Source: Naegleria gruberi
Taxonomy: Eukaryota
Direction: 5' to 3' (one strand)
NCBI GenBank assembly: GCA_000004985.1
Contig: GG738883.1
DNA: 64,000 nucleotides
A program made the position numbers and the translations under genes. Within the stretch, counting starts at the first letter, position 1; every line of letters starts with the position of its first letter. Shown here in pieces: positions 3,667 to 64,000 of the stretch. A model generated the notes under the pieces. It was not told the DNA's origin. It saw only the letters and a program-made list of their open reading frames with translations, and did no database searches.

Positions 3667-6263
3667 TCACCTCACTTGGTTACCATCAAAAAGAACCATT
3701 ATTTGAATTTCATCAATAATGGAAGGCCAATTAATTAGACCCTCAATTGGAACCTTATCAAATAGTAAGGCAACAGGATAATTGTTCTCATCCTCAACAA
3801 ATAGGAATGCTTCGCATGAAAATTCATTTTCCACTTCACTAATCTCTGGACACAAGTGATCATATCGCTCCTTTGTAAATTTCACATATCTTAAGCGATC
3901 TTGGACTACAGCAAAGTATTTTCTGCCTTTCCAGTGGAATTTTCCAACCAGAGGAAAATCAGATTCATCTCTATTGAATGTAGTAACTGCAACTGAGGTA
4001 TTCGAATCTTTTTAATTGTTGATTTGATAAATTAGCAAATAAATTACTTACCATTTTGAGAGATTTCATTCTTGCCTTCTTGTGGAAGTAAATCGTGCAG
4101 TTTCTTCTTACAATCGAATGGCAATAATTTTGAGGAGAAGAGTGTCTCTATCACATGTTTAGGAATTAATGTTGAAAGTTTGGAATCTAGATTCTTGAGG
4201 ATATAGCTCGATACAATTCCACATACAAATTTCTCATGTTCCTTCCTTTCGAACTTTTCCATTAAATAGTAAATATAAATTGGGTTCAATATTTCTAATA
4301 TTTCAGAAATTGTTAAATCATCCACTAAATAAATACACAATTCGTGTAATAATTCCAATTCAAAAAAGGTCTTTTTTCTTAAAAAGGCAACCTTTCCCTC
4401 TTTTAAAAAATTGAAATATAAATCAAATATTTCAACAACGCCCTCATTCTTAATAGATGGAATAATTTCATTCGAAACTCCACTCAAATCAACTATCATC
4501 AGCCCATTCTGATTTCTTTCCACACTATTAATCCAATCTGAGCTTAACAAAGTTATGAAATAGTTTGATCTTTTCAGTAACTTTCCCTCACATTCAATTG
4601 AATCACTTTTAGATAATTTAATGAGGATTGTATCCTCAATTTGAATGTTTTCATGAGATTCACCTTCCTTAATATTATACGAATGTATCAATTTCATTAA
4701 ATTATCAAATGGAAATGGCATTAATTTGACATTTGGCTTTTCGATAATTGGTGATTTGACATGCTTTAACTTTTCTTGAAATAGTTCCAAGAAACTAGCT
4801 ATGGATTTTCTTTTGGAAAGGTTCATATTCTTTCCCATCCATTTCAATCCTTCAGAATAATTTAGTTCGGTTCCTCTTCCTTGCCAATACATTGATGAAA
4901 TTTTCAATTGAGCATTTAAGTTTCCTTGCTTGGCTGCTTTCAAATAGTATTCGAAAGCTTTAGAATCACTCTGTTCGATTCCTTTTCCTTTCAGATACAT
5001 TAGTCCAAGCTCAAAATGTGCTGTTGAATTTCCTTCCTCAGCTGCTTTTGAATACCATTTAAAAGCTTGTGAATAATCCTTATTGCACCCCTCTCCAGAG
5101 AAATACATATTCCCTAAGAGGACCATTGCCTCAGTCTCATTTTGGTTTGCAGATTTCAAAACCAATTCGAAAGCTTTCGAATAATCTTTTTCTACACCTT
5201 TTCCAAGAACAATCATTGATCCAGCAGCAAGTTGAGACTTTGCATCCCCTTGCTCAGCTGCTCTCAAATACCATTTCAAAGCTTTCGAATAGTCACCATT
5301 CGAATGATAAATCTTTCCACATACATTTTGAGAGGTCACGTCACCTAGCTCTGCAGCTTTCAGATACCATTCCATAGCTTTAGAAACATCTTTTTCAACT
5401 CCATGTCCAAAATAATATATACTTCCAATATCATATTGAATTGACAAAAGTTTTGGAACTCTTCCATGAGATTCAGCTTTTAAAAGCCATTCTAAAGTTT
5501 TGGAATAATCTTGTGGTACAGATTGTCCATAAAAATGCATGTAACCAATTTGAGCTTGTGATTCAAAACAACCCTTCTCTGCAGCTTTCGTATACCATTC
5601 AAAAGCTTTCGTATAATCTGGTTCAACCCCTATTATTCCTTCATAATAAATATGCCCAATAGTACGTTGAGCTGCACAATGCCCTTTCTCAGCTGCTTGC
5701 AAAAAGAATTCCATAGCTTTCGAATAGTCTTGTTCTATTCCAACCCCTTTCAAATACATTGACCCAATCTGGAATAGACCTGCCTGTGCAGTTTTCATAT
5801 ACCATTCGAAAGCTTTCGAATAATCAATCTCTGTATTAGCTCGATTATGATAAAACTCTCCAATCTTTTTCATTGCCAACAAGTGATTATCCCTAATCGA
5901 TGCAATACAAAAATCCAAATTACTAAATTCTTCCGCCAATAAGTAAACATAAAATTTCCAAATATTTTCTTCACACTTTTCATTTTCTGCATTTTTTAAA
6001 ATTTCTTCCAAATATTTTGCATAATCAATAAATTCACAATCTTCATTTTCTATTGTTGATCTATCTTCTTGATAATTATTGTTACGAATTAATTTAATTG
6101 TTTTTAAATTTTCCAAAACTTGATGAAATTTAGAATTGTTCCATCCGATTAAAAGTGAAATGTCATCGGTGGGTTCTTCTTCTTTTTGGTGGTGATTAAT
6201 GGTCTTCTTCTTCTTCTTGTTTGATTTCTGGCCAGATTTTTGATCATGAGAACGTTTTTTCAT
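3667..6263 (-). CDS. Sel1-repeat (TPR-like) protein with a BTB-like region. Proposed join: exon1 6263..4052, 44-nt intron 4051..4008, exon2 4007..3667.
   Basis: At least 8 tandem Sel1-like repeats (DYSKAFEWY.KAAE.G....Q..LG.MY..G.GV..D). A downstream region resembles BTB/POZ. The long ORF ends ...QNGK* but the last codons read AATG|GTAAGT. A 44-nt GTAAGT...AAAAAG intron joins in frame to a 113-codon open frame (3667..4007) that has no in-frame ATG of its own and a TAA immediately upstream of the acceptor. Confidence 0.6.
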
Positions 6264-6645
6264 TTTTTTTAAATTAAATACAAATATTCAAATATTGGGT
6301 CAAACCTTAAATTGAAACTCTGTCGGGTATTTAAGCGACCTAATAAATTAAAATCAAAATTTCCTTAGACTTTGAATCTTCCGTAAATTTTGCAAATTTG
6401 TTCTTCAACCAATTATAAAAAAATTCAACTCCGAAAAAAATTACAAGCAGATCCTTCTTCTCCTAAAAGCTGCCGAACAACAACAAAACAAAAAGGGGAG
6501 GAAGGTATTATTTATAATACAACAACAATAAGAATATAAGAATAATTTTATATTTATATATAATACAACAAGAGAGAGAGGATCAAATTTCTCTTTTTTC
6601 CTCATCAAATCTAATTTTACTTTTTAAATATATTATACAAATAGT

Positions 6646-7506
6646 ATGCTCTCTGCTTCTCATAATACGGAGGAAGATGTTACTCAACTACCTCAGGAAA
6701 GACACGGAAGGAAGACTAGACACTTTGGAAAGAGTACGAGGATTAAAGCCTTGATTATGCAATATTGGAATATGATCATGTCGGTGCTGGGGATGATATC
6801 GATTGGATTGATATGTTTTGGAGCCTTGTTGGTAGTTTTCGGATGGATTTGGAAGTATCCGAGTGAATTTAATTTAAAAACAAGTTGCAAAGTTGTTAAA
6901 TTTGTGGATTGTGTTCTGTTGGTCGATAAATTTCATGATTCATCTTCGGAATTTGCAAATCCATTCAGTAGTAAACATTTCAAGAGATCGGCGATTCATC
7001 AACATTGTGCTGTTGAAGTAATTGTTGAGAATGAGAATGCAACAAGAACAAGTATTGATAAAATAGTGTATGATCCAAATAGTACGGAGAATAAGTATGC
7101 GATTGGTTCAATTGTTGACTGCTACTTATCACAAACCAATAATCAATTTGTATCATTCAGGTCAACCATAACGAGTGGAAAAATTGCTTTTAGAACCATT
7201 GGATTTTTAATCATTTTACTTGGATTGGTATCTGGACTTTTTTGTATCCTTGCCGTAACCTCGATTAGGAAACAATGTTTTGAATTAATTGGATCAATAT
7301 CAAAGAAGATTACATTCCGTCGAACCAAACGATTGGAAGATGAAGAACCTTTGAGAAATGCCTCAAGATCGAGTGCTGGTTCTTCTCATCTCTATGAAGA
7401 TGGTGAACGAGAATATTTCGATTATATTGAAAAGGATAGAAAAGTTCCACAAAAGAATCATTCTGATGAATTTGATGAGGATGAAGAAGAATTAGTAGTT
7501 GTGTAA
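6646..7506 (+). CDS. Hypothetical membrane protein (two predicted TM helices, acidic C-terminus).
   Basis: 286-aa ORF with hydrophobic segments MIMSVLGMISIGLICFGALLVVFGWIW and IGFLIILLGLVSGLFCILAV. No recognisable family. Confidence 0.4.
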   Translation: MLSASHNTEEDVTQLPQERHGRKTRHFGKSTRIKALIMQYWNMIMSVLGMISIGLICFGALLVVFGWIWKYPSEFNLKTSCKVVKFVDCVLLVDKFHDSSSEFANPFSSKHFKRSAIHQHCAVEVIVENENATRTSIDKIVYDPNSTENKYAIGSIVDCYLSQTNNQFVSFRSTITSGKIAFRTIGFLIILLGLVSGLFCILAVTSIRKQCFELIGSISKKITFRRTKRLEDEEPLRNASRSSAGSSHLYEDGEREYFDYIEKDRKVPQKNHSDEFDEDEEELVVV

Positions 7507-10634: not shown

Positions 10635-13028
10635 TTATTGATCCAAAACTTGAATGAGGACAGAGTTTGGTTTTTTCACAATTTCACCAATTTTCCACAA
10701 ATTCAAATTCTTTTCCTTGAACGAATTGACCAGCTTTTCTTCCTCATCAGGAGAAATGGTAAACAGCAAGCCACCACTTGTTTGAGCATCTGCCAAAATT
10801 AATTGTTCTTCCTTTGATAGAGTTGAGGCGAATTCAACGAATTGTTGAACATTTTCCAAATTAGTTTTGGTTCCTCCAGGAATAACAATTCTCATTAAGG
10901 ATAGACAAGAAGAATCCAAAAGAGGAATTTGCTTTGCATTCAATTGAGCTACCAAATCCTTATTTTCCTCACAGATTTCTCTACTTCCTTTCATAATTTC
11001 CTTCAAATGTCCTAGTAATCCAAAACCTGTCACATCAGTGCAAGAAGAGACAGATTTCATTTCTCTCAACACATACGAAGTATCTCTATTCAAAGTCTTC
11101 ATAGAATTGATTGCAGATTGAGCTGTTTCAGATTCATATGGAACATTACCCAATTTCATTGCAGATGTAATGACACCTGTTCCAATTCTCTTGGTGAGGA
11201 ATAATAAATCTCCTTCTTCACATCCAACATTTCTGAAAATCTTGTCAGGATGAATAATGCCATTTACACTCATGCCGAATTTAGGTTCCTCATCATCGAT
11301 GGAATGACCACCAACAATGGCAACTCCAGCTTCATTGGCTTTATCGATGGAACCTCTCAAGATTTCTTGGAGAATTTCGATTGGGAGAGTTCTGGATGGG
11401 AAGGCAACAACACTGAGAGCTGTTTGTGGTTTACCACCCATTGCATAGACATCACTTAAGGCATTAGCACAAGCAATAGCTCCAAAATCGTAAGGGTTGT
11501 CCACAATTGGAGCGAAAAAGTCAATGGTGCTTACAATAGCAACGTGATCATTGATTTTGTAAACTGCTGCATCGTCACAGGTTGAATTTCCAACCAGAAC
11601 TGAATTATTTTCTGGTTGTTTTGGCAATTTCTGTAAAATACTGTCTAGTAATCGAGAATTAATCTTACATCCACATCCCAATCCAGAAGCTAATTGAGTC
11701 AACTTGACATTATCTGCATTAACGTTCAATGAAACTTTCTTTGAGAAACAAACTCCGCTTGAAGATATTGAACTAGAACAAGATGAAGCAACTCCTGTAG
11801 CTCCTCCACCACATGGACCACAGGATGATGAGCCACTTCCGCCTCCAGAAGTTGCCATTGATGGAGCAGCTCCTTTTGATTTTAGCCCAAAGTGAATCGA
11901 ACGGTTTCCAACGACATTAAAGTGATTTCCCAACCAAGTATCTGAAAGAACTGAGGCAGTATTTCCACAAACTAGAACTGGTTTGTGGGCTTCAAATTTG
12001 TGAGTACCATCCAATTGGTAACTTTGTGGATAGCCCTTAATACTTCCCTTATAATAAGCAACTTGTCCATAATCTTCACATAATGGTTCAAAATCGAATA
12101 ACTTGAATAATCTGTATGTGGAAGTGAATGACGAGAGCTCTGAAAATAAATCTTGCATATCCTCCTCACCTTTTGGTGGTACCATCGATATGGAAATCAT
12201 TGAGGAACGACTCAATTCTCTTGGATCTTCAAATCCAGACTTTTTCACAAATCTAATAAAGTCATTAATGTACATGGCATGTGAAAACAAATTGATGAGA
12301 CTCTTTTGTGAAGGCGCAATCAAGGATCTGTGGACAGAGTTTTGCAAGACGGAAATTTGCAAATTGTCCAATCTTCTATCGGTATAAATATCCTGATAGT
12401 AAAATTCACCTCCCTTTTTAAGTAATCCAAATGAAAGCTCAAACATTTTTCTCTTCTCTCTCAATTGGAATCCAGGGAAATTACCAATCATTACATCAAA
12501 GGATTCTTTCTTCTCCAATTCCACTTTCAGCTCATGCTGTTTTCCTAAATAAGTAAAGTCAATTGGACTAAATGACAAGTCCTTCAACAATTCATCCATT
12601 ACCTTAATCAACTCTTCCTCGCTCTCCAAACCTCCCATTCTATACAACTTTTCTCTATTTTCACTCAGTACCAACAATGAAACTCTTCCATTTCTTCCAA
12701 CCATTTTCGAAGCCACCAAAACATCTCTCATTGCACTTGATAATAACAACTCATCATCACCATTCGCACACAACACACCAACATTAAGGTGATGATGATT
12801 ATCGAGAGTGGATGATCCCAATCCCAGTGGAATATTCATTCCGATCATTCCCTGTGAAGAAAATGCTGAGGATTGATCTAAAAGTTTGCTGAGGAATTTT
12901 CTTAAAGTTTCCGAATGTAGGGTTGATGATGAGGCAATTTGGGAAAGTTGATTGAGTAGTTGGACATGATCTCTGTGATGAGAGTTACTGGAAATGAAAT
13001 TAAGATTTAAGAATTCTATCATTTTCAT
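10635..13028 (-). CDS. SPS: Selenophosphate synthetase (SelD/SPS, Cys-type) fused to an N-terminal arsenite/selenium-methyltransferase (AS3MT)-like domain.
   Basis: The C-terminal half has the SelD active-site signature LASGLGCGCKINSRLLDSIL (E. coli HGAGCGCKISPKVLETIL) and AIR-synthase-like blocks (AAVYKIND, FFAPIVDNPYDFGAIACANALSDVYAMGG). The N-terminal ~440 aa has AS3MT-like blocks (FDVMIGNFPGF...LLKKGGEFYYQDIYTDRRL; RLFKLFDFE; a Cys/Gly-rich SSSCGPCGGG segment). The expected GxGxG SAM loop appears degenerate (NVGVLCANGDDE). Confidence 0.85.
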   Translation of the reverse strand: MKMIEFLNLNFISSNSHHRDHVQLLNQLSQIASSSTLHSETLRKFLSKLLDQSSAFSSQGMIGMNIPLGLGSSTLDNHHHLNVGVLCANGDDELLLSSAMRDVLVASKMVGRNGRVSLLVLSENREKLYRMGGLESEEELIKVMDELLKDLSFSPIDFTYLGKQHELKVELEKKESFDVMIGNFPGFQLREKRKMFELSFGLLKKGGEFYYQDIYTDRRLDNLQISVLQNSVHRSLIAPSQKSLINLFSHAMYINDFIRFVKKSGFEDPRELSRSSMISISMVPPKGEEDMQDLFSELSSFTSTYRLFKLFDFEPLCEDYGQVAYYKGSIKGYPQSYQLDGTHKFEAHKPVLVCGNTASVLSDTWLGNHFNVVGNRSIHFGLKSKGAAPSMATSGGGSGSSSCGPCGGGATGVASSCSSSISSSGVCFSKKVSLNVNADNVKLTQLASGLGCGCKINSRLLDSILQKLPKQPENNSVLVGNSTCDDAAVYKINDHVAIVSTIDFFAPIVDNPYDFGAIACANALSDVYAMGGKPQTALSVVAFPSRTLPIEILQEILRGSIDKANEAGVAIVGGHSIDDEEPKFGMSVNGIIHPDKIFRNVGCEEGDLLFLTKRIGTGVITSAMKLGNVPYESETAQSAINSMKTLNRDTSYVLREMKSVSSCTDVTGFGLLGHLKEIMKGSREICEENKDLVAQLNAKQIPLLDSSCLSLMRIVIPGGTKTNLENVQQFVEFASTLSKEEQLILADAQTSGGLLFTISPDEEEKLVNSFKEKNLNLWKIGEIVKKPNSVLIQVLDQ

Positions 13029-13804
13029 ATAGTTAATAATAATATGTATTTAAATGTGGTATTTAATTTTATATTGAAAAGGATGGAAGTTATTGTTTCA
13101 ATTTTTTTGAATTGAAAAACGGAGGATCAATATGCTTAGAGTATTATTTAAAATATTATGAAATTCGGCACTTTACAAATTCGCCGTAATTGAATAATAA
13201 TAATTATTAACAAATAATTAAATACAGTTTACAAAAAAACCATCTACTTGGGAACTTAAGAAGGCTGGACCACCAACTCTTCAAACATGATCAACTCCCT
13301 CTTTCCACTCTTTTCCATTCCTCTCCACAATCCATTTTCATCCAACTTCCTCACTCTCATACCTTCCCAAAATGTTCTCCTTACTAAACCATCACATCAC
13401 AAAGATAATAATAATAAATTGATAACAATTTTCTCTCAAAATCGAGTTACTGACCAACCCCCTTAAAGAATATTCTCAAATCTGGCAATTCTCGGATTCT
13501 TTTTCTCTCTCCATTGTCATCCACACAACACTGTTCTTCTTCGTCCTCTTATCTTTGTTTCTCTCTACTCCATCTCCACCTTACAAAAACTATAAAAAGA
13601 CTTGTGAATGGGCAAATATTTCTGCCATCAAGAAAAAAAATACAAAACGTGATTTGGTTACCGAGAATCACACTCACTCACACACGAAATTGATTGTTTT
13701 TTACTCTACTTGTGCTAACGAAGTTATAGTATCATCTACGACTATTTCAACATTCTCCTCATAATCATCATCATCATCATATTGAAGATTTTTTTACATA
13801 CAAA

Positions 13805-23612: not shown

Positions 23613-23683
23613 TCGGGTGTGGTATAGTGGTAGCATTCCAGACTGTCACTCTGGCGACCCGGGTTCAATTCCAGGCACTCGAG
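23613..23683 (+). tRNA. tRNA-Asp (anticodon GTC), possibly degenerate or a pseudogene.
   Basis: Cloverleaf: acceptor TCGGGTG/CACTCGA, anticodon stem CCAGA/TCTGG with loop CTGTCAC, T-loop TTCAATT. The D-stem (A.C) and T-stem (G.A) each carry one mismatch relative to canonical tRNA-Asp. Confidence 0.55.
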
Positions 23684-42766: not shown

Positions 42767-43922
42767 TTACATAATTGAACACTTTTTTCCACTGTTGTTC
42801 CTTCTATATTTTTCTAAAATATTTGAGTCTTGTACAATGATTGTTTGTAATAGTTGTAAATCATCAGGTGAGAAGCTTTTCGACATTTTCATACATTCAT
42901 TAAATACTAAATCACTCTTCAACTTGTCCTGCGCAGATGCTTCAATAATTCTTGTGTTTTTCAATTGGAATCGAGTAATAATTTGGTTAATTTCATTCTT
43001 ACAATCAGTAATGGAAATTTGAATTTCTGTTTGTGGAATATCAATCTTGTTAATAACGAAAACCATGGGTAATCCAGCATTTTCGTTAATGTTCAAAATT
43101 TTCTTTACCATGCCATTTAAATTTTTCAAGGATTCACTGTTATCCAGAGAGCAGACCAGTATGAAACTCATTGCATCTCTAATATAACCATCTCTTAATG
43201 CTGCAAATTCCTCCTGACCAGCTGTTATTGAGCCATTGCATATTTATTTTCAATGGAATTCCAATAAAAATATGATATTGTACTTACCAGTATCCAGAAT
43301 TTCAGCAAAGACAGGTGCCCCATCAACAGAAACTTCCTTCCTATACGAATCCTCCAGGGTTGGATCATATAAACTAACAAATACACCCTGTATAAATTGA
43401 ATAGTCAAGGCTGTTTTACCAACCCTTGCTGCATATTTCAATTTAAATTTCACACCAAATAACAATTCAATAATAATTTTCAATAACATTTTAAATATTG
43501 AATAACATTCCAAATGATTACAAACCTTCTCCCATAATGACCATTTTAATAATATCCTTTTCCCAAACACTCTTTGAACTCTTCACTGCAGATTTAATAA
43601 ACCTCATCAATAACAGTTTCCTCCTCAAAACATTCTTTCTAATCATTTCCTCTTTCAATTTGTTTAATTCTTCCCCCAGTGATGCATTCGTTCCTAAATC
43701 CACTTGAAATAATTTCCACCAAAATTCCTCCATCAAATACTTGTTAGTTTCTTTGCAGAGTTTGGAATTAAGTGCTTGAAACTTGATAATGCTCAGTGCA
43801 CATGCCTTCCGAACCGAAAACTCAACTTGTTTAATATCCGAAGGAATTAGAAAAGAGAGAATATGTCGATGTATTTCGTTGGGTAATGAGAGAAAGGCTG
43901 ATGATGATTGCTTAGTAGACAT
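42767..43922 (-). CDS. F-box + Ras-family small GTPase fusion with a C-terminal CaaX box (CSIM). Join: exon1 43922..43526, intron 43525..43429 (GTTTGT...TATGCAG), exon2 43428..43288, intron 43287..43222 (GTAAGT...AACAG), exon3 43221..42767.
   Basis: N-terminus [33 protein letters not shown] is an F-box. The spliced GTPase reads ...KMVIMGEG|[48 protein letters not shown]|[14 protein letters not shown]...FVINKID...EASAQD...KKCSIM*. G1 (GEARVGKT) is completed across intron 1 and G3 (DTAGQE) across intron 2. The Ras effector loop [11 protein letters not shown] is present. Confidence 0.65.
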
Positions 43923-60442: not shown

Positions 60443-61109
60443 TTAATGTTTTTTAAGATTTCTTGGACTTTCCAAGTAGGCTTTAACTCTCTCACTCTTC
60501 AATACATTTGCCTTCAGAGTTTCAAGCTTGGAATCATCAACAACCACTTCAAATCGATACAAATCCAAGTATGATAATAAATCGTACAAGTATAAATCGG
60601 CCCAACTCAATCCTCCCGGAACTAGATTGCCATTATTCTTGATGAGGTGAGAATTTAATCCTTTCATGATGAGTTTCAACCAACCATTTTGGAATTTAAC
60701 TCGTTCCTCCTCCTTCTTATCTTCGGAAGTAAAATAGACAATTCTGATAACGTGATTGGTTAATTCATCAATAGCAGAGACGCATTCTTCGAGAATGGCT
60801 TGATTTCTTTCATCAGTTGGATGAAAATTTGCTTGCTTGGCTAAGAATCGAGCAATAGGAATGGTTTGATAGAGTGTGAAATCTTCATCAACTTTGAGAG
60901 AAGGCAATTGACCATATCTTGTGTTTGGTTGAGTAGATGTCCAGGATCCATCTTCAAATGAAATTGATTTAAATTCGTATGGAATTGCACAATGTTCTGC
61001 GATCAACTTGATAATGTCCTACAAAGAAGATTCAGTAATTTGAAAAGTTGTTTCAATGAAAACTTACTGCTCTGCCGGGTCCAGGAAAGTATACTAATTG
61101 GTAAGCCAT
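60443..61109 (-). CDS. GST: Glutathione S-transferase, sigma/HPGDS-like. Join: 14-codon exon1 61109..61068, 49-nt intron 61067..61019 (GTAAGT...TTTGTAG), exon2 61018..60443.
   Basis: Exon1 MAYQLVYFPGPGRA joins to DIIKLIAEHCAIPYEFKSISFEDGSW...GQLPSLKVD...IARFLAK..., restoring the canonical GST N-terminal thioredoxin-like fold, which the ORF alone lacks. Confidence 0.8.
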
Positions 61110-61354
61110 TTTTATTTGTGAATTTGTTGGATATTTGGTTAGTCAAATCTAGCTATTTATTTCGATGACCTGACTTCATGCAAATGCTAGAACATCCAAT
61201 TCGAGTGGAAATTCGAATCCTGAGCGTACGCATTAATCTCCAGCTCCTGATACTTTACAATTTCAGTTCATTAAAGTTGCTTGCAGCTGAATAAGTTTCT
61301 TTATGCTCAGTGGCAAATATTGATCTAATTGTTACAATTTCAAATAGTTTTGGA

Positions 61355-62371
61355 ATGGGTGAATTATTTAAAAAAATGAAATTGTTGGAACTGCCAGACG
61401 AAATTATTTTTCATATTTTGGGATATTGTTGTGTAGCAGCAGAAAATCATCATGAACCTCTACTCCGAAATCCATATGTTAGACAAATGGCCAAAATACA
61501 ATCTATCAACAAGGATTTTTCAAGAAGAATTAAAAGTTATTCTGATACGTTTTGGAAGAGTCTTTTAGTGGATGAATTTGGAGCGAATAAGCAATTTATT
61601 AAATTAATAGATGATCAAATAACAGGTACTTTGCAAAATAAGAAGATTTCACTGAAGAGAAGAGCACTCTTGTTGAGAAAATTATTTAGTAGGAATTTCA
61701 AAATTAATACCAATAAGCAACCTGGTTATTCCGAATGTAAATTTTGTGTTTCTGGACCTGCTAATACTGGTAAAACTTGTTTAACCACAAAATACATAAC
61801 AGGTGAATTTCCACAAGTTACAGATCCAACAATAGAAGACAGCTACAGAAAGATGATACGAGTAGATGAATATTCACACCTTTTGGATATTTTGGACACG
61901 GCTGGGCAAGAGGAATATAAAGCAATGAGAGATGGATATATTGCAACATCACAAGCTTTTGTAATTACTGCAAGTTTAGATCTTATTCCAACAGAATGTA
62001 CACAATATTACGAGGAATTATTGGCTCAAATTATAAGCATTAAGGATTGGAAAGGAGTTGGATGTTATCATCCAATGGTTTTTGTAGTGAACAAGTCTGA
62101 TTTAGAACAAGAGGAAAGAAAGTCAACATTTGAGGAATGGAAAACATTTTTGAATTCAGTTATAGAGAGATATGGAATAATGAATTCTGAGATTATTGAA
62201 ACCAGTGCCAAATCCAATATTAATGTTTCAAAAATATTTGAATTAGGTATTAGAATGTTTCTACATTTTCATTTTAGTCACGTTTTTTGGTTTCAACAAG
62301 TAATTGAATTGGATACAAAAGCTTTTAGTCACACAGAAAACAAATCCGAAAAGAAATGTTTACTACAATAA
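61355..62371 (+). CDS. F-box + Ras-family small GTPase fusion with CaaX box (CLLQ); single exon; paralog of 42767..43922.
   Basis: LELPDEIIFHILGYC (F-box), linker ...KRRALLLRKLFSR..., then a complete GTPase: GPANTGKT (G1), TDPTIEDSYRKMIRVDE (switch I), DTAGQEEY (G3), VNKSDL (G4), ETSAKS (G5), and terminal KKCLLQ*. Track ORF 61310 starts at GTG; first ATG at 61355. Confidence 0.7.
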   Translation: MGELFKKMKLLELPDEIIFHILGYCCVAAENHHEPLLRNPYVRQMAKIQSINKDFSRRIKSYSDTFWKSLLVDEFGANKQFIKLIDDQITGTLQNKKISLKRRALLLRKLFSRNFKINTNKQPGYSECKFCVSGPANTGKTCLTTKYITGEFPQVTDPTIEDSYRKMIRVDEYSHLLDILDTAGQEEYKAMRDGYIATSQAFVITASLDLIPTECTQYYEELLAQIISIKDWKGVGCYHPMVFVVNKSDLEQEERKSTFEEWKTFLNSVIERYGIMNSEIIETSAKSNINVSKIFELGIRMFLHFHFSHVFWFQQVIELDTKAFSHTENKSEKKCLLQ

Positions 62372-62430
62372 GTCTTTCTTTCAATGATTGTTAAGGGAAA
62401 ATATTAAGAGATTGATTGCTCATCATGTGA

Positions 62431-62503
62431 TCCCCCTTAGCTCAGTCGGTAGAGCGTCAGACTGTTAATCTGCAGGTCGGTGGTTCGAGCCCACCAGGGG
62501 GAG
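62431..62503 (+). tRNA. tRNA-Asn (anticodon GTT).
   Basis: Acceptor TCCCCCT/AGGGGGA, D-arm GCTC-AGTCGGTA-GAGC, anticodon loop CTGTTAA, T-arm GGTGG-TTCGAGC-CCACC; 73 nt. Confidence 0.85.
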
Positions 62504-63036
62504 ATGCTTTTGCTCCCTACTTACTTTTTTCCCAAACTTGTCCTAAACCTGACTTGTGTATTTTATGCATTTCCTCAATTTATATCATGGAAGTGTTTAT
62601 TGGATATTCAAAGAATGGAATATTCCGGGAGTGTCACTACAAAACAACTAGATATCCAATATCAACTTTAAAATTGTTAGACAACCATTTACCCTTAATC
62701 CAGTCAGTTTGCTCCACATATTTTATAGTATCAACAAGTTTTTGCTGGGAAGTTTCAATGTCACTAAACAAAATCACCAATGCTTGCCCATGACTTTCCT
62801 GTTTGTTATTCACATCACTTCGTTCTTTTAAAATGCCGAGTATTGACCTGAAAACCCAAAAGCCCGATAACTTTGTAAACACAATTTCAGCAGTATAACA
62901 AATTGTCCATTTTAAGTAGTTTTGCACGCACCTTTTAATACCAATGCAATTTAAAAAAAACCTCCAAACAACTAAGCACCCACCTCTACCTCGAACAACT
63001 ATAACATACTTGGGTGCATTCAAATTTTGAATACAA

Positions 63037-64000
63037 ATGAACAATTTAATCCTCTCAACATTTGATGTTATTTCCAATTCAACCTCAACAACCAATACAT
63101 CTGCACTCTATATTGGTAATTGCTTACTGGTGGACCCTGATGGCTATCCATATGTCGAGTGGATGTACAATCTAATGGGTCAGTGTGTCCATTCACCATT
63201 GGAGCAGAGCTCTTTCTATGTTGGATTGGGAAGTCTGGCCTTGTACATTGTTTCTGGCATTCCACAAGTTATTGAGAATTTCATGAAGGGTAATGCTGAT
63301 GGTTTATCGCCCTACACTTTGGCCATGTTTATCATTGGTGATTCGAGTAACTTGTTGGGGGCCATTCTCACCCGTCAATTATTCACACAAATTCTATTGG
63401 CCATCTACTTTGTCACTATAGAGGTGATTTTAATTTCACAATTCCTATTCTACAAATTGAAAGCACTGTGGAAGAGGAGGAAACACAAAGGACAAGAACA
63501 ACTCCACGATGAAGAGGATGATAAAGCATCATCTGCCAACACTTCAGCAATAGTATCAGCAGCCGTAGATACTCACAGTTGTACCTCAATGACTTGTACT
63601 CCATTAGAGGAACACAATAATGAATTTCTTTCCGATAGTGAGCAGCAGCCTCATCACGAGAATGGACTGATGAGTTTGAAGGGCAATGTTAATTCCACAC
63701 GAACTGTTTCTCTACTTGTTTTGTTGATGGTCTTTTTCTATTTAATGTTCACAATGAATCATTCAAGTAACAACCTTAATATTCCACAACAACACAATGA
63801 ACAACAAACTGGAAGAAGATTATTATCGAACCATGAAGATGAAATCAGCACTACCAAGGATCACAACAGCGTTCAATTTCCACCTGTTGCAACTGAGGCC
63901 ATTATTGGCTATACTATTGGTTTCATATCCACGACATGTAGTATTGGTTCAAGAATTGCTCAAATTATTAAGAATTTCATGAAAGGAACCTATGGCATGA
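63037..64000 (+). CDS. PQ-loop repeat transporter (PQLC2 / cystinosin / Ypq-like), 5' part; continues past the window end.
   Basis: ATG at 63037; the frame is open to 64000. First PQ loop: GIPQVIENFMKGNADGLSPYTLAMFIIGDSSNLLGA. A second begins CSIGSRIAQIIKNFMKGTYG at the window edge, after a hydrophilic loop. Not in the ORF track because no stop falls within the window. Confidence 0.8.
   Translation, partial: MNNLILSTFDVISNSTSTTNTSALYIGNCLLVDPDGYPYVEWMYNLMGQCVHSPLEQSSFYVGLGSLALYIVSGIPQVIENFMKGNADGLSPYTLAMFIIGDSSNLLGAILTRQLFTQILLAIYFVTIEVILISQFLFYKLKALWKRRKHKGQEQLHDEEDDKASSANTSAIVSAAVDTHSCTSMTCTPLEEHNNEFLSDSEQQPHHENGLMSLKGNVNSTRTVSLLVLLMVFFYLMFTMNHSSNNLNIPQQHNEQQTGRRLLSNHEDEISTTKDHNSVQFPPVATEAIIGYTIGFISTTCSIGSRIAQIIKNFMKGTYGM

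What the first reader, a model, noticed from the sequence alone, without database searches (positions are those of the whole stretch)
61355..62371. Second, intronless copy of the F-box-Ras-CaaX architecture
This single-exon copy shows the same domain order without relying on any splice prediction. It corroborates the fusion seen at 42767..43922, and it sits just upstream of a tRNA-Asn. The two copies differ in intron content (2 versus 0). This suggests retroposition or intron gain/loss within a lineage-specific family.
Basis: seen in the sequence. Interest (0 to 1): 0.6.

Follow-up and report, generated by a model that had tools for sequence, protein, structure and literature searches.

The report
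Intronless F-box-like Ras gene in Naegleria
This is a real, intact, single-exon Naegleria gruberi gene for a Ras-type GTPase with a divergent F-box-like N-terminal module and a lipid-anchor signal; the gene is already annotated, and it adds the Ras family to the F-box–GTPase fusions already published for this amoeba.

Summary
Window 61355..62371 (+) is one uninterrupted 338-codon ORF. It is 100% identical to N. gruberi XP_002674532.1, annotated 'ras family small GTPase'. It has three parts:
- an N-terminal helical module of about 125 aa that opens with an F-box-like motif (LPDEIIFHILGY…IQSINKDF…FWKSLL);
- a Ras/Rap-type G domain with all five G motifs;
- a C-terminal helix followed by CLLQ, a farnesyl-type CaaX box.

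tRNA-Asn(GTT) lies 59 nt downstream on the same strand. Copy A (43922..42767, minus strand, 2 introns; XP_002674622.1) aligns with it end to end (32% identity, E 3e-48).

The N-terminal module is rare. A profile found only 35 proteins among 1.84 billion representatives, and nearly all of them are Naegleria- or Willaertia-type Ras proteins.

The F-box assignment rests on sequence profiles (hhalign 95.8%; 19 of 34 members give weak Pfam F-box hits). Fold searches do not settle it, and Skp1 binding is untested.

Both introns of copy A recur at the same codon and phase in other paralogs, including one that groups weakly with this gene. Loss of two ancestral introns is therefore the best explanation. 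Nothing positive points to retroposition.

A published re-annotation (Herman et al. 2021) lists both genes as plain Ras and reports F-box fusions only for Rab, Rho, Ran and Gα. This is a modest extension of a known kind.

The parts
61355..62371 (+). Copy B: complete single-exon CDS (338 aa plus stop). It is N. gruberi XP_002674532.1/EFC41788.1; the RefSeq model starts at the second ATG, 61376.
61385..61579 (+). F-box-like region (aa 11-75): LELPDEIIFHILGY, a loop insertion of about 15 aa, then AKIQSINKDFSRRI and DTFWKSLL.
   Evidence: Pfam PF13013, 23.5-25.9 bits, above cut-off. hhalign of the family profile against an F-box alignment: 95.8%, E 7.5e-9, with shuffled controls at E 0.2-0.8. AF2 predicts helices 15-26, 35-51, 53-58 and 60-75.
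61580..61729 (+). Helical linker (aa 76-125) containing the family motif LKRRALLLRKL. It connects the F-box-like part to the G domain.
   Evidence: alignments A1/A3/A4; AF2 helices 79-90 and 100-119
61730..62269 (+). Ras-family G domain (aa 126-305).
   Evidence: Pfam Ras E 1.3e-27; PDB sequence hits to Rap1b and KRAS, E about 1e-25; Foldseek match to KRAS/Rap1, TM 0.85-0.91, 36-40% identity
61754..61777 (+). P-loop GPANTGKT (G1). Ras positions 12 and 13 are Ala and Asn instead of Gly-Gly.
   Evidence: sequence; alignment A3
61823..61846 (+). Switch I / G2, DPTIEDSY (Thr35 equivalent is T159).
   Evidence: sequence; alignment to Rap1b
61895..61909 (+). G3 / switch II, DTAGQ (Gln61 equivalent present). 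This is the site where copy A and several paralogs carry a phase-1 intron; it is uninterrupted here.
62090..62101 (+). G4 motif NKSD.
62204..62212 (+). G5 motif SAK.
62279..62332 (+). Family-conserved C-terminal helix (aa 309-326) between the G domain and the CaaX box.
   Evidence: AF2 helix 309-326; alignment A3 columns 490-520
62357..62368 (+). CaaX box CLLQ, preceded by KK. X = Gln predicts farnesylation (established CaaX rules, my knowledge).
   Evidence: sequence; every full-length family member in alignment A3 ends in C-a-a-X
62431..62503 (+). tRNA-Asn (GTT), 59 nt downstream of the stop codon. It is a neighbour, not part of the gene.
   Evidence: ARAGORN
42767..43922 (-). Copy A (XP_002674622.1, 330 aa). 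Exons 43922-43526, 43428-43288 and 43221-42767. Intron 1 lies in P-loop codon 12 (phase 1) and intron 2 in the DT^AG codon 59 (phase 1). P-loop is GEARVGKT; CaaX is CSIM.

Best explanation
The region is the intact, intronless N. gruberi gene XP_002674532.1. It belongs to an expansion of Ras-family GTPases restricted to Naegleria and Willaertia, with at least about 19 members recognisable in N. gruberi.

Shown by sequence and models:
- The protein has three parts in order: a ~125-aa helical N-terminal module that begins with a divergent F-box (LPxEIxxHILxF, a 10-20 aa insertion, then an xQSLNKxF helix and an FWxxL motif) followed by a helical linker; a Ras-type G domain; and a C-terminal helix ending in a farnesyl-type CaaX box.
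- All nucleotide-binding motifs are intact.

Inferred mechanism:
- The protein is lipid-anchored to a membrane through the CaaX box and cycles between GTP and GDP states.
- It uses the F-box to dock Skp1–Cul1. The Ras domain then takes the place of the WD40/LRR substrate-binding domain of ordinary F-box proteins. Ubiquitination of the switch's partners, or of the GTPase itself, would be gated by nucleotide state.
- This would be the cullin-1 counterpart of Rab40–CRL5 and RhoBTB–CRL3.
- Ala/Asn at Ras positions 12/13 suggest slow, GAP-insensitive GTP hydrolysis.

Introns:
- The lack of introns is most likely derived, through loss of two family-ancestral phase-1 introns (P-loop codon 12 and switch-II codon 59). 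The usual cause of such concerted loss is recombination with a reverse-transcribed mRNA.
For: Identity:
- 100% match to the N. gruberi protein.

Architecture:
- Pfam Ras plus F-box-like_2, both above cut-off.
- Full-length homology to copy A, to Willaertia P0012 (31% identity, 96% coverage) and to N. fowleri P0159.
- AF2 model with pLDDT 84 and pTM 0.76: a confidently helical N-module and a KRAS/Rap1-like G domain.

F-box:
- 19 of 34 N-modules hit PF12937 at E<=0.1 (best 3.8e-5). The other recurrent families are also F-box-like: PF00646, PF13013, Elongin_A and PRANC.
- hhalign of the family profile against an F-box alignment gives 95.8%, E 7.5e-9 across the whole F-box. Reversed and shuffled controls give E 0.2-0.8.
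- Weak PDB profile hits include FBXL5, FBXO42 and AnkB.
- The weakest hit of the N-module HMM is a plant F-box protein.

CaaX:
- Conserved in all full-length members.

Precedent:
- Herman et al. 2021 report the F-box as the commonest extra domain on Naegleria Rab, Rho, Ran and Gα GTPases, and propose GTPase-dependent ubiquitination.

Intron loss:
- Copy A's two introns recur at the identical codon and phase in L005. Intron 1 there even shares the 5' 12-mer GTTTGTAATCAT.
- The DT^AG intron also recurs in L004.
- Truncated ORF calls end at the same places in five or more other paralogs.
- L005 groups with B and its sister P0002 (62% NJ bootstrap).
Against: F-box:
- The assignment is weak for individual members. 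Copy A scores 15 bits and Willaertia 19 bits, both below cut-off, and several members show no hit.
- Most of the hhalign signal comes from the LPxEI..IL.F helix. Without it, E is only 0.05.
- Foldseek finds no significant PDB match for the N-module.
- PDB profile hits to F-box proteins are not significant (E 0.17-3.3).
- Skp1 binding, prenylation, nucleotide binding and expression were not and could not be tested here.

Intron loss:
- The direction depends on a 62% bootstrap node that involves a long-branch sequence.
- The intron structure of B's closest paralog (XP_002671663.1) could not be read, because N. gruberi contigs are not in the look-up collection.
Confidence: 0.6

Rival explanations
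1. The N-terminal module is not a working F-box. It is a lineage-specific helical regulatory domain of this Ras clade, for example one that auto-inhibits the switch regions, mediates dimerisation or scaffolds effectors. It only retains, or has converged on, an LPxEIxxIL-type first helix.
For: - Most members fall below Pfam F-box thresholds.
- A 10-50 aa variable insertion splits the putative F-box.
- About 60 further conserved residues (FWW…LKRKxLL) have no F-box counterpart.
- pTM 0.76 for the whole chain suggests the module packs in a fixed way against the G domain.
- A curated survey using SMART, Pfam and CDD did not call an F-box in any Ras-family entry.
Against: - The profile-profile match spans all three F-box helices in register (95.8%). 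The second half aligns in the same register on its own.
- F-box-clan families are the only recurrent Pfam hits.
- Clear F-boxes sit in the same N-terminal position on Naegleria Rab and Rac paralogs.
Confidence: 0.3
2. Copy B is a processed retrogene: a spliced mRNA of an intron-bearing paralog was reverse-transcribed and inserted at a new site, here just upstream of a tRNA gene.
For: - It lacks both introns that are shared by copy A and other paralogs.
- It lies 59 nt upstream of tRNA-Asn. Some retroelements in other amoebae and in yeast target the upstream side of tRNA genes (my knowledge).
Against: - There is no poly(A) tract between the stop codon and the tRNA.
- No flanking direct repeats exceed chance.
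- There is no close parent: the best paralog is 58% identical, and copy A is 32%.
- The gene has an ordinary head-to-head arrangement with a GST gene about 245 bp away, so it has a normal promoter context.
- In-place intron loss through cDNA recombination explains the same data.
- From memory of the 2010 genome paper (not verified here), most N. gruberi genes are intronless anyway.
Confidence: 0.15
3. The intron difference reflects intron gain in copy A's lineage, not loss in B. B keeps the ancestral intronless state.
For: - Intron positions in the family are very variable. Willaertia has YD^PT and LR^DQ. N. fowleri has DTA^G and YYA^L. L003 has LT^YD. L004 has a P-loop intron 9 nt away from A's.
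- This variability suggests active gain or sliding.
Against: - Two introns sit at the identical codon and phase in A and in L005. Intron 1 has a shared 12-nt 5' end, found exactly once in the window.
- L005 groups with B rather than with A.
- The DT^AG intron is shared by at least four paralogs.
Confidence: 0.2
4. Copy B is a decaying or non-functional paralog in a birth-and-death family.
For: - Gly12 and Gly13 are replaced.
- The family includes annotated pseudogenes.
- B has no one-to-one N. fowleri ortholog.
- The model of its sister, XP_002671663.1, lacks both the N-terminal motif and the CaaX box.
Against: - The 338-codon ORF is intact.
- All five G motifs, the F-box-like motif and the CaaX box are preserved.
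- The AF2 model is confident.
Confidence: 0.07

Closest known systems
Naegleria F-box–GTPase fusions described by Herman et al. 2021 (BMC Biol 19:142, Supplementary Material 4 and Table S8): Rab-like, Rho/Rac, Ran and Gα proteins with an F-box
   Same: Same organism. The layout is the same: an N-terminal F-box, a helical stretch, a Ras-superfamily G domain and often a CaaX box. They are likewise lineage-specific, expanded families with birth-and-death dynamics. The proposed role, GTPase-dependent ubiquitination, is also the same.
   Different: Here the G domain belongs to the Ras family proper. The paper lists F-box fusions only for Rab, Rho, Ran and Gα. In its tables both window genes, and all other Ras-family entries, carry no F-box flag. 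The F-box here is more divergent and is split by an insertion.
Rab40 (Rab plus C-terminal SOCS box; CRL5 substrate receptor) and RhoBTB (Rho plus BTB; CRL3 adaptor)
   Same: A small-GTPase domain is fused to a cullin-RING-ligase adaptor motif, so the GTPase itself is part of an E3 ligase (my knowledge; RhoBTB is also cited).
   Different: The adaptor motif differs (F-box, hence Skp1/Cul1). It sits at the N-terminus rather than the C-terminus. The GTPase family differs (Ras). There is no sequence relationship outside the G domain, and no experimental data exist for the Naegleria proteins.
TbFRP (FYVE–F-box–GTPase of Euglenozoa; Exp Parasitol 2013, PMC3593210)
   Same: An F-box precedes a Ras-like GTPase domain in another member of Discoba.
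   Different: TbFRP has an N-terminal FYVE domain for membrane targeting instead of a CaaX box. Its G domain is closest to Rab18. The authors found no N. gruberi ortholog. No FYVE domain is detected here.
Canonical Ras/Rap (KRAS, Rap1b; N. gruberi Ras XP_002675003.1)
   Same: The G domain is 36-41% identical and has the same fold. It shares the switch-I sequence DPTIEDSY, DTAGQ with Gln61, NKxD, SAK and a farnesyl-type CaaX box.
   Different: There is a 125-aa N-terminal module and an extra C-terminal helix. Gly12/Gly13 are replaced by Ala/Asn (Ala/Arg in copy A).

Membership tests
Ras family small GTPase (Pfam PF00071) | Significant match to the family model and the Ras fold | tested here: met
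   PF00071 E 1.3e-27, 96.9 bits against a 21.6 cut-off. Foldseek match to KRAS/Rap1 with TM 0.85-0.91.
Ras family small GTPase (Pfam PF00071) | G1-G5 motifs: GxxxxGK[ST], switch-I Thr, DxxG, NKxD, SAK | tested here: met
   GPANTGKT, DPTIEDSY, DTAGQ, NKSD and SAK are all present.
Ras family small GTPase (Pfam PF00071) | Ras proper rather than Rap or Rheb: Gln at position 61 (Rap has Thr), ED-SY effector loop | tested here: inconclusive
   Gln61 and the DPTIEDSY loop favour Ras. However, Rap1b and KRAS score equally (E about 1e-25). The published survey files the gene under Ras. No dedicated phylogeny with Rap and Rheb was run.
Ras family small GTPase (Pfam PF00071) | Gly12/Gly13 in the P-loop, needed for GAP-stimulated hydrolysis | tested here: not met
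   B has Ala-Asn and A has Ala-Arg at these positions. Most relatives have GGVGKS.
F-box domain (Pfam clan with PF00646, PF12937, PF13013) | Significant match to an F-box model | tested here: inconclusive
   B matches PF13013 at 23.5-25.9 bits, above the 21.6 cut-off. Copy A (15 bits), Willaertia (19 bits) and most relatives are below cut-off. 19 of 34 members hit PF12937 at E<=0.1.
F-box domain (Pfam clan with PF00646, PF12937, PF13013) | Profile-level homology across all three helices (LPxEIL…, …L…V, CKxW…LW) | tested here: met
   hhalign 95.8%, E 7.5e-9, 47 columns covering template positions 3-49 of 53. Shuffled and reversed controls give E 0.2-0.8. Caveat: the reference alignment is home-made.
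F-box domain (Pfam clan with PF00646, PF12937, PF13013) | Three-helix F-box fold resembling solved Skp1-bound F-boxes | tested here: inconclusive
F-box domain (Pfam clan with PF00646, PF12937, PF13013) | Binds Skp1 and assembles an SCF ligase | not testable with these tools
   No complex prediction or experiment is available.
CaaX-prenylated proteins | Cys at -4, aliphatic residues at -3 and -2, and a C-terminal residue that selects the transferase | tested here: met
   B ends in C-L-L-Q and A in C-S-I-M. The CaaX box is conserved in all full-length relatives. Actual lipidation is not testable.
Processed retrogene | Lacks the introns of the parent gene | tested here: met
   B has no introns, whereas A, L004 and L005 share introns at codons 12 and 59.
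Processed retrogene | 3' poly(A) remnant and flanking target-site duplications | tested here: not met
   No A-tract lies in the 59 nt after the stop. Direct repeats around the gene are short chance-level matches.
Processed retrogene | Identifiable intron-bearing parent with close similarity | tested here: not met
   The closest paralog is 58% identical and its gene structure is unknown. Copy A is 32% identical.
TbFRP (FYVE–F-box–GTPase) | N-terminal FYVE domain and a Rab18-like G domain | tested here: not met
   No FYVE hit. The G domain is Ras/Rap-like. The authors found no Naegleria ortholog.

The most novel reading that the evidence does not exclude
A Heterolobosea-specific family of about 20 or more genes encodes farnesylated Ras switches that are themselves SCF (Skp1–Cul1) substrate receptors. 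The Ras effector surface would select ubiquitination targets in a GTP-dependent way at membranes. This would be a third, independent marriage of a small GTPase with a cullin-RING ligase, after Rab40–CRL5 and RhoBTB–CRL3, and the first involving Ras proper. It was missed by the published curated inventory because the F-box is split by an insertion.
Probability: 0.35. Interest if true: 0.55.

Novelty: new member of a known kind. Interest (0 to 1): 0.33.

Why it matters
If the N-terminal module really binds Skp1, Naegleria would have wired Ras-type switches directly into SCF ubiquitin ligases, on top of its Rab, Rho, Ran and Gα families. That would strengthen the published idea that GTPase-gated ubiquitination is a major regulatory theme in these amoebae. 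It would also give a natural example of Ras acting as an E3 substrate receptor. In practical terms, at least about 19 N. gruberi 'Ras' entries in the curated inventory would need an added domain annotation. The family also offers a compact case for studying intron loss and intron sliding among recent paralogs. Otherwise this is an ordinary, already annotated member of a large gene family.

Tried and rejected
- Retroposition hallmarks: I read the 59 nt between the stop codon and the tRNA and ran a direct-repeat search on 61000-62800. There is no poly(A) and no credible target-site duplication.
- Family-profile search against PDB sequences: F-box proteins (FBXO42, FBXL5, AnkB) appear, but only at E 0.17-3.3, which is not significant.
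- Foldseek of the N-module model against the PDB: nothing below E=2. Foldseek of the full model returns only Ras and Rap.
- The search for homologous proteins with the N-module alignment returned only 2 proteins. With copy A it returned mostly canonical Ras. The word index misses these divergent paralogs. The exhaustive HMM search was the informative one.
- Reading the gene structure of B's sister paralog XP_002671663.1, and of B and P0127: N. gruberi NEG-M contigs are not in the look-up collection.
- Relationship to TbFRP was rejected: no FYVE domain, a different G-domain family, and the authors found no Naegleria ortholog.
- I tested whether the intron 5' 12-mer GTTTGTAATCAT is a common splice motif. 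It occurs exactly only once in the window, at copy A's intron 1.
- Literature searches for a Naegleria Skp1/F-box–Ras link and for N. gruberi intron density found nothing usable.
Full report
**1. What is at the coordinates**

Window 61355..62371 (+) is one uninterrupted ORF. The first ATG is at 61355 and the stop codon ends at 62371, giving 338 aa. In 34% GC DNA roughly 7% of random codons are stops. An open run this long therefore has a chance probability of about 1e-11 (my arithmetic).

Pfam finds a Ras domain at aa 129-299 (E 1.3e-27). It also finds F-box-like_2 (PF13013) at aa 3-71, at 23.5 bits against a curated cut-off of 21.6. The protein ends in C-L-L-Q.

ARAGORN places tRNA-Asn(GTT) at 62431..62503 on the same strand, 59 nt after the stop.

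Upstream, on the minus strand, a GST gene (GST_C_3, E 1e-12) starts about 245 bp away in head-to-head orientation.

**2. Identity**

The protein is 100% identical to N. gruberi NEG-M XP_002674532.1/EFC41788.1, annotated 'ras family small GTPase'. That model starts at the second ATG, 61376.

The other copy in the window lies on the minus strand:
- exons 43922-43526, 43428-43288 and 43221-42767;
- introns of 97 and 66 nt, both GT..AG and both phase 1.

My splice of these exons gives a 330-aa product identical to XP_002674622.1 from the same 371-kb scaffold. A tblastn search finds no further copies in the window.

**3. The two copies are full-length paralogs**

BLASTP aligns them from the LP motif to the CaaX cysteine at 32% identity, E 3e-48. 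The homology therefore covers the N-terminal module and the C-terminal extension, not just the G domain.

The same full-length architecture occurs in:
- Willaertia magna: P0012, 337 aa, 96% coverage, ends in CIVM;
- N. fowleri: P0159, 368 aa, ends in CSIM.

**4. Size and range of the family**

I built an HMM of the N-terminal module alone and ran it exhaustively against 1.84 billion cluster representatives. Only 35 proteins scored at E<=1e-3. All 28 of those I retrieved, except the weakest, continue into a Ras P-loop or are ORF calls cut off at an intron there. They come from Naegleria- or Willaertia-type sequences. The weakest hit I retrieved is a plant F-box protein.

Only re-annotated entries are printed as sequence in Table S8 of Herman et al. 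2021. Among those, at least 16 further N. gruberi 'Ras' entries show the same pattern: LPxEIxxHILSF … NFQSLNK … FWW … LKRKxLL, then a G domain and a CaaX box. Together with A, B and XP_002671663.1 that makes 19 or more of the roughly 80 Ras-family genes.

Neither A nor B is listed as a one-to-one ortholog of any N. fowleri Ras.

**5. Is the N-terminal module an F-box?**

Evidence for individual proteins is weak:
- B passes PF13013.
- Copy A reaches only 15 bits on PF12937 and Willaertia 19 bits, both below cut-off.
- Several members hit nothing.

Evidence at family level is better:
- Of 34 N-modules scanned separately, 19 hit PF12937 at E<=0.1 (best 3.8e-5). Five hit PF00646 and two hit PF13013. 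The only other recurrent families, Elongin_A and PRANC, are themselves F-box-like.
- hhalign of the family profile against an F-box alignment gives 95.8% probability, E 7.5e-9.
- The hhalign match covers 47 columns, template positions 3-49 of 53, with a 15-residue insertion after ILSFL.
- Reversed and column-shuffled controls give E 0.2-0.8. With the first helix removed from both profiles, the remainder still aligns in the same register, but only at E 0.05.

Structure is not decisive:
- AF2 predicts a confident all-helical module: pLDDT 80-84, with helices 15-26, 35-51, 53-58, 60-75, 79-90 and 100-119.
- Foldseek finds no PDB match for it.

My reading is that this is a divergent F-box followed by a helical linker, as in Cdc4-type F-box proteins. 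I give it about 0.7 confidence. Skp1 binding is untested.

**6. The G domain and C-terminus**

The G domain matches Rap1b and KRAS equally by sequence (E about 1e-25). By fold, TM is 0.85-0.91 at 36-40% identity.

The motifs are GPANTGKT, DPTIEDSY, DTAGQ, NKSD and SAK. Gln61 argues for Ras rather than Rap, and the published survey derives these paralogs from true Ras.

One unusual feature: both window copies replace Gly12/Gly13 (B has Ala-Asn, A has Ala-Arg), whereas most relatives keep GGVGKS. In mammalian Ras such replacements impair GAP-stimulated hydrolysis (my knowledge), so these two proteins may be long-lived in the GTP state.

A family-conserved helix (aa 309-326) and a short basic patch precede the CaaX box. 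The final residues Q and M predict farnesylation (my knowledge of CaaX rules). The CaaX box is present in all full-length relatives.

**7. Introns**

| Gene | Intron positions |
|---|---|
| Copy A | Codon for Ras residue 12 (GE^ARVGKT) and codon for residue 59 (DT^AGQ), both phase 1 |
| L005 (N. gruberi-like contig from an ENA assembly; protein P0130, matching the N. gruberi Table S8 entry ACER01000338.1) | Same two codons and phases. Intron 1 starts with the same 12-mer, GTTTGTAATCAT, found exactly only once in the window |
| L004 (ortholog of XP_002677816.1) | Shares the DT^AG intron. Its P-loop intron lies 9 nt downstream |
| L003 | One intron at LT^YDPT |
| N. fowleri P0159 | DTA^G and YYA^L |
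| Willaertia P0012 | YD^PT and LR^DQ |

Truncated ORF calls of at least five more paralogs end exactly at the codon-12 or codon-59 sites.

In a rough NJ tree, B and its 58%-identical sister XP_002671663.1 group together at 100% bootstrap. L005 joins them at 62%. Copy A sits in another Naegleria subclade, and Willaertia forms its own clade.

The most parsimonious reading is that both introns predate the A/B split and were lost in B's lineage. Concerted loss of all introns is classically attributed to recombination with a cDNA.

A true retroposition event is not supported:
- there is no A-tract and there are no target-site duplications;
- there is no close parent gene;
- the promoter context is ordinary.

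The proximity to tRNA-Asn is noted but remains unexplained.

**8. Mechanism**

Shown: the architecture, intact motifs, family conservation and a confident fold.

Inferred: the protein is a farnesylated, membrane-bound Ras switch. Its N-terminal F-box recruits Skp1–Cul1, so the nucleotide state of the Ras domain controls ubiquitination of bound partners or the protein's own turnover. Rab40–CRL5 and RhoBTB–CRL3 work this way, and Herman et al. proposed the same for the other Naegleria F-box–GTPases.

The main rival (about 0.3) is that the module is a lineage-specific regulatory helical domain with only a vestigial F-box helix.

**9. Comparison with what is known, and novelty**

The gene is annotated and is included in a curated, published inventory. 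[quoted passage not shown] It lists every Ras-family entry, including A and B, without an F-box.

TbFRP of Euglenozoa is a different protein: it has a FYVE domain and a Rab18-like G domain, and it has no Naegleria ortholog.

The finding is therefore a new member of a known kind. The increments are an F-box-like module recognisable by profile methods in a Ras-proper clade, and evidence that the intronless copy arose by intron loss.

Interest is modest (0.33). It would rise if Skp1 binding were shown.

Noticed in passing
window 61754-61777 (copy B) and 43532-43526 + 43428-43412 (copy A, minus strand): Both window copies have non-glycine residues at Ras positions 12 and 13 (B: GPANTGKT; A: GEARVGKT). 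Most family members keep GxGGVGKS. In mammalian Ras such changes block GAP-stimulated hydrolysis.
   Followed up: partly
window 43525-43514 (minus strand) and L005:2218-2229: Intron 1 of copy A and the intron at the same codon and phase in a paralog that is only about 26% identical both start with the 12-mer GTTTGTAATCAT. The exact 12-mer occurs once in the 64-kb window. Such conservation of intron sequence between very divergent paralogs is unexpected. Possible causes are a functional element, gene conversion or chance.
   Followed up: partly
L001 (Willaertia magna JBEGDK010000117.1) 6001-7127 and 12499-13127: Two copies of the Willaertia homolog (the same 337-aa product is called for both genes; the visible part of the second aligns at 96-100%) lie in opposite orientation. 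They flank an 820-aa protein with a canonical F-box (PF00646). A further Ras-domain gene lies at L001:1-1099.
   Followed up: no
window 61355 vs 61376: The RefSeq model of copy B starts at the second in-frame ATG (MKLLELPDE…). The first ATG adds MGELFKK. Which one is used is unknown.
   Followed up: no
P0002 = XP_002671663.1 (not in window): The closest paralog of copy B (58% identity) is modelled without the LPxEI N-terminus, and it ends in a non-homologous tail without a CaaX box. It is either a mis-predicted model or a decaying gene. Its locus could not be retrieved.
   Followed up: partly
window 60443-61110 (minus strand): A glutathione S-transferase gene (GST_C_3, E 1e-12) with a short first exon and one intron is transcribed divergently from copy B. 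Its start lies about 245 bp from B's ATG, so the two genes probably share a promoter region.
   Followed up: partly
L003, L004, L005 (ENA ERZ929261, run ERR1078381, PRJEB11402): An assembly deposited as a metagenome contains contigs of a N. gruberi-like amoeba. Three family paralogs match NEG-M proteins at roughly 91-96% amino-acid identity. Prokaryote-style gene calls there truncate the genes at introns, which conveniently marks the intron positions.
   Followed up: partly
window 62504-63100: Downstream of tRNA-Asn there is a 152-aa minus-strand ORF (62637-63095) with no Pfam match. It was not examined further.
   Followed up: no
window 23613-23683: A second tRNA gene, tRNA-Asp(GTC), lies on the + strand.
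   Followed up: no
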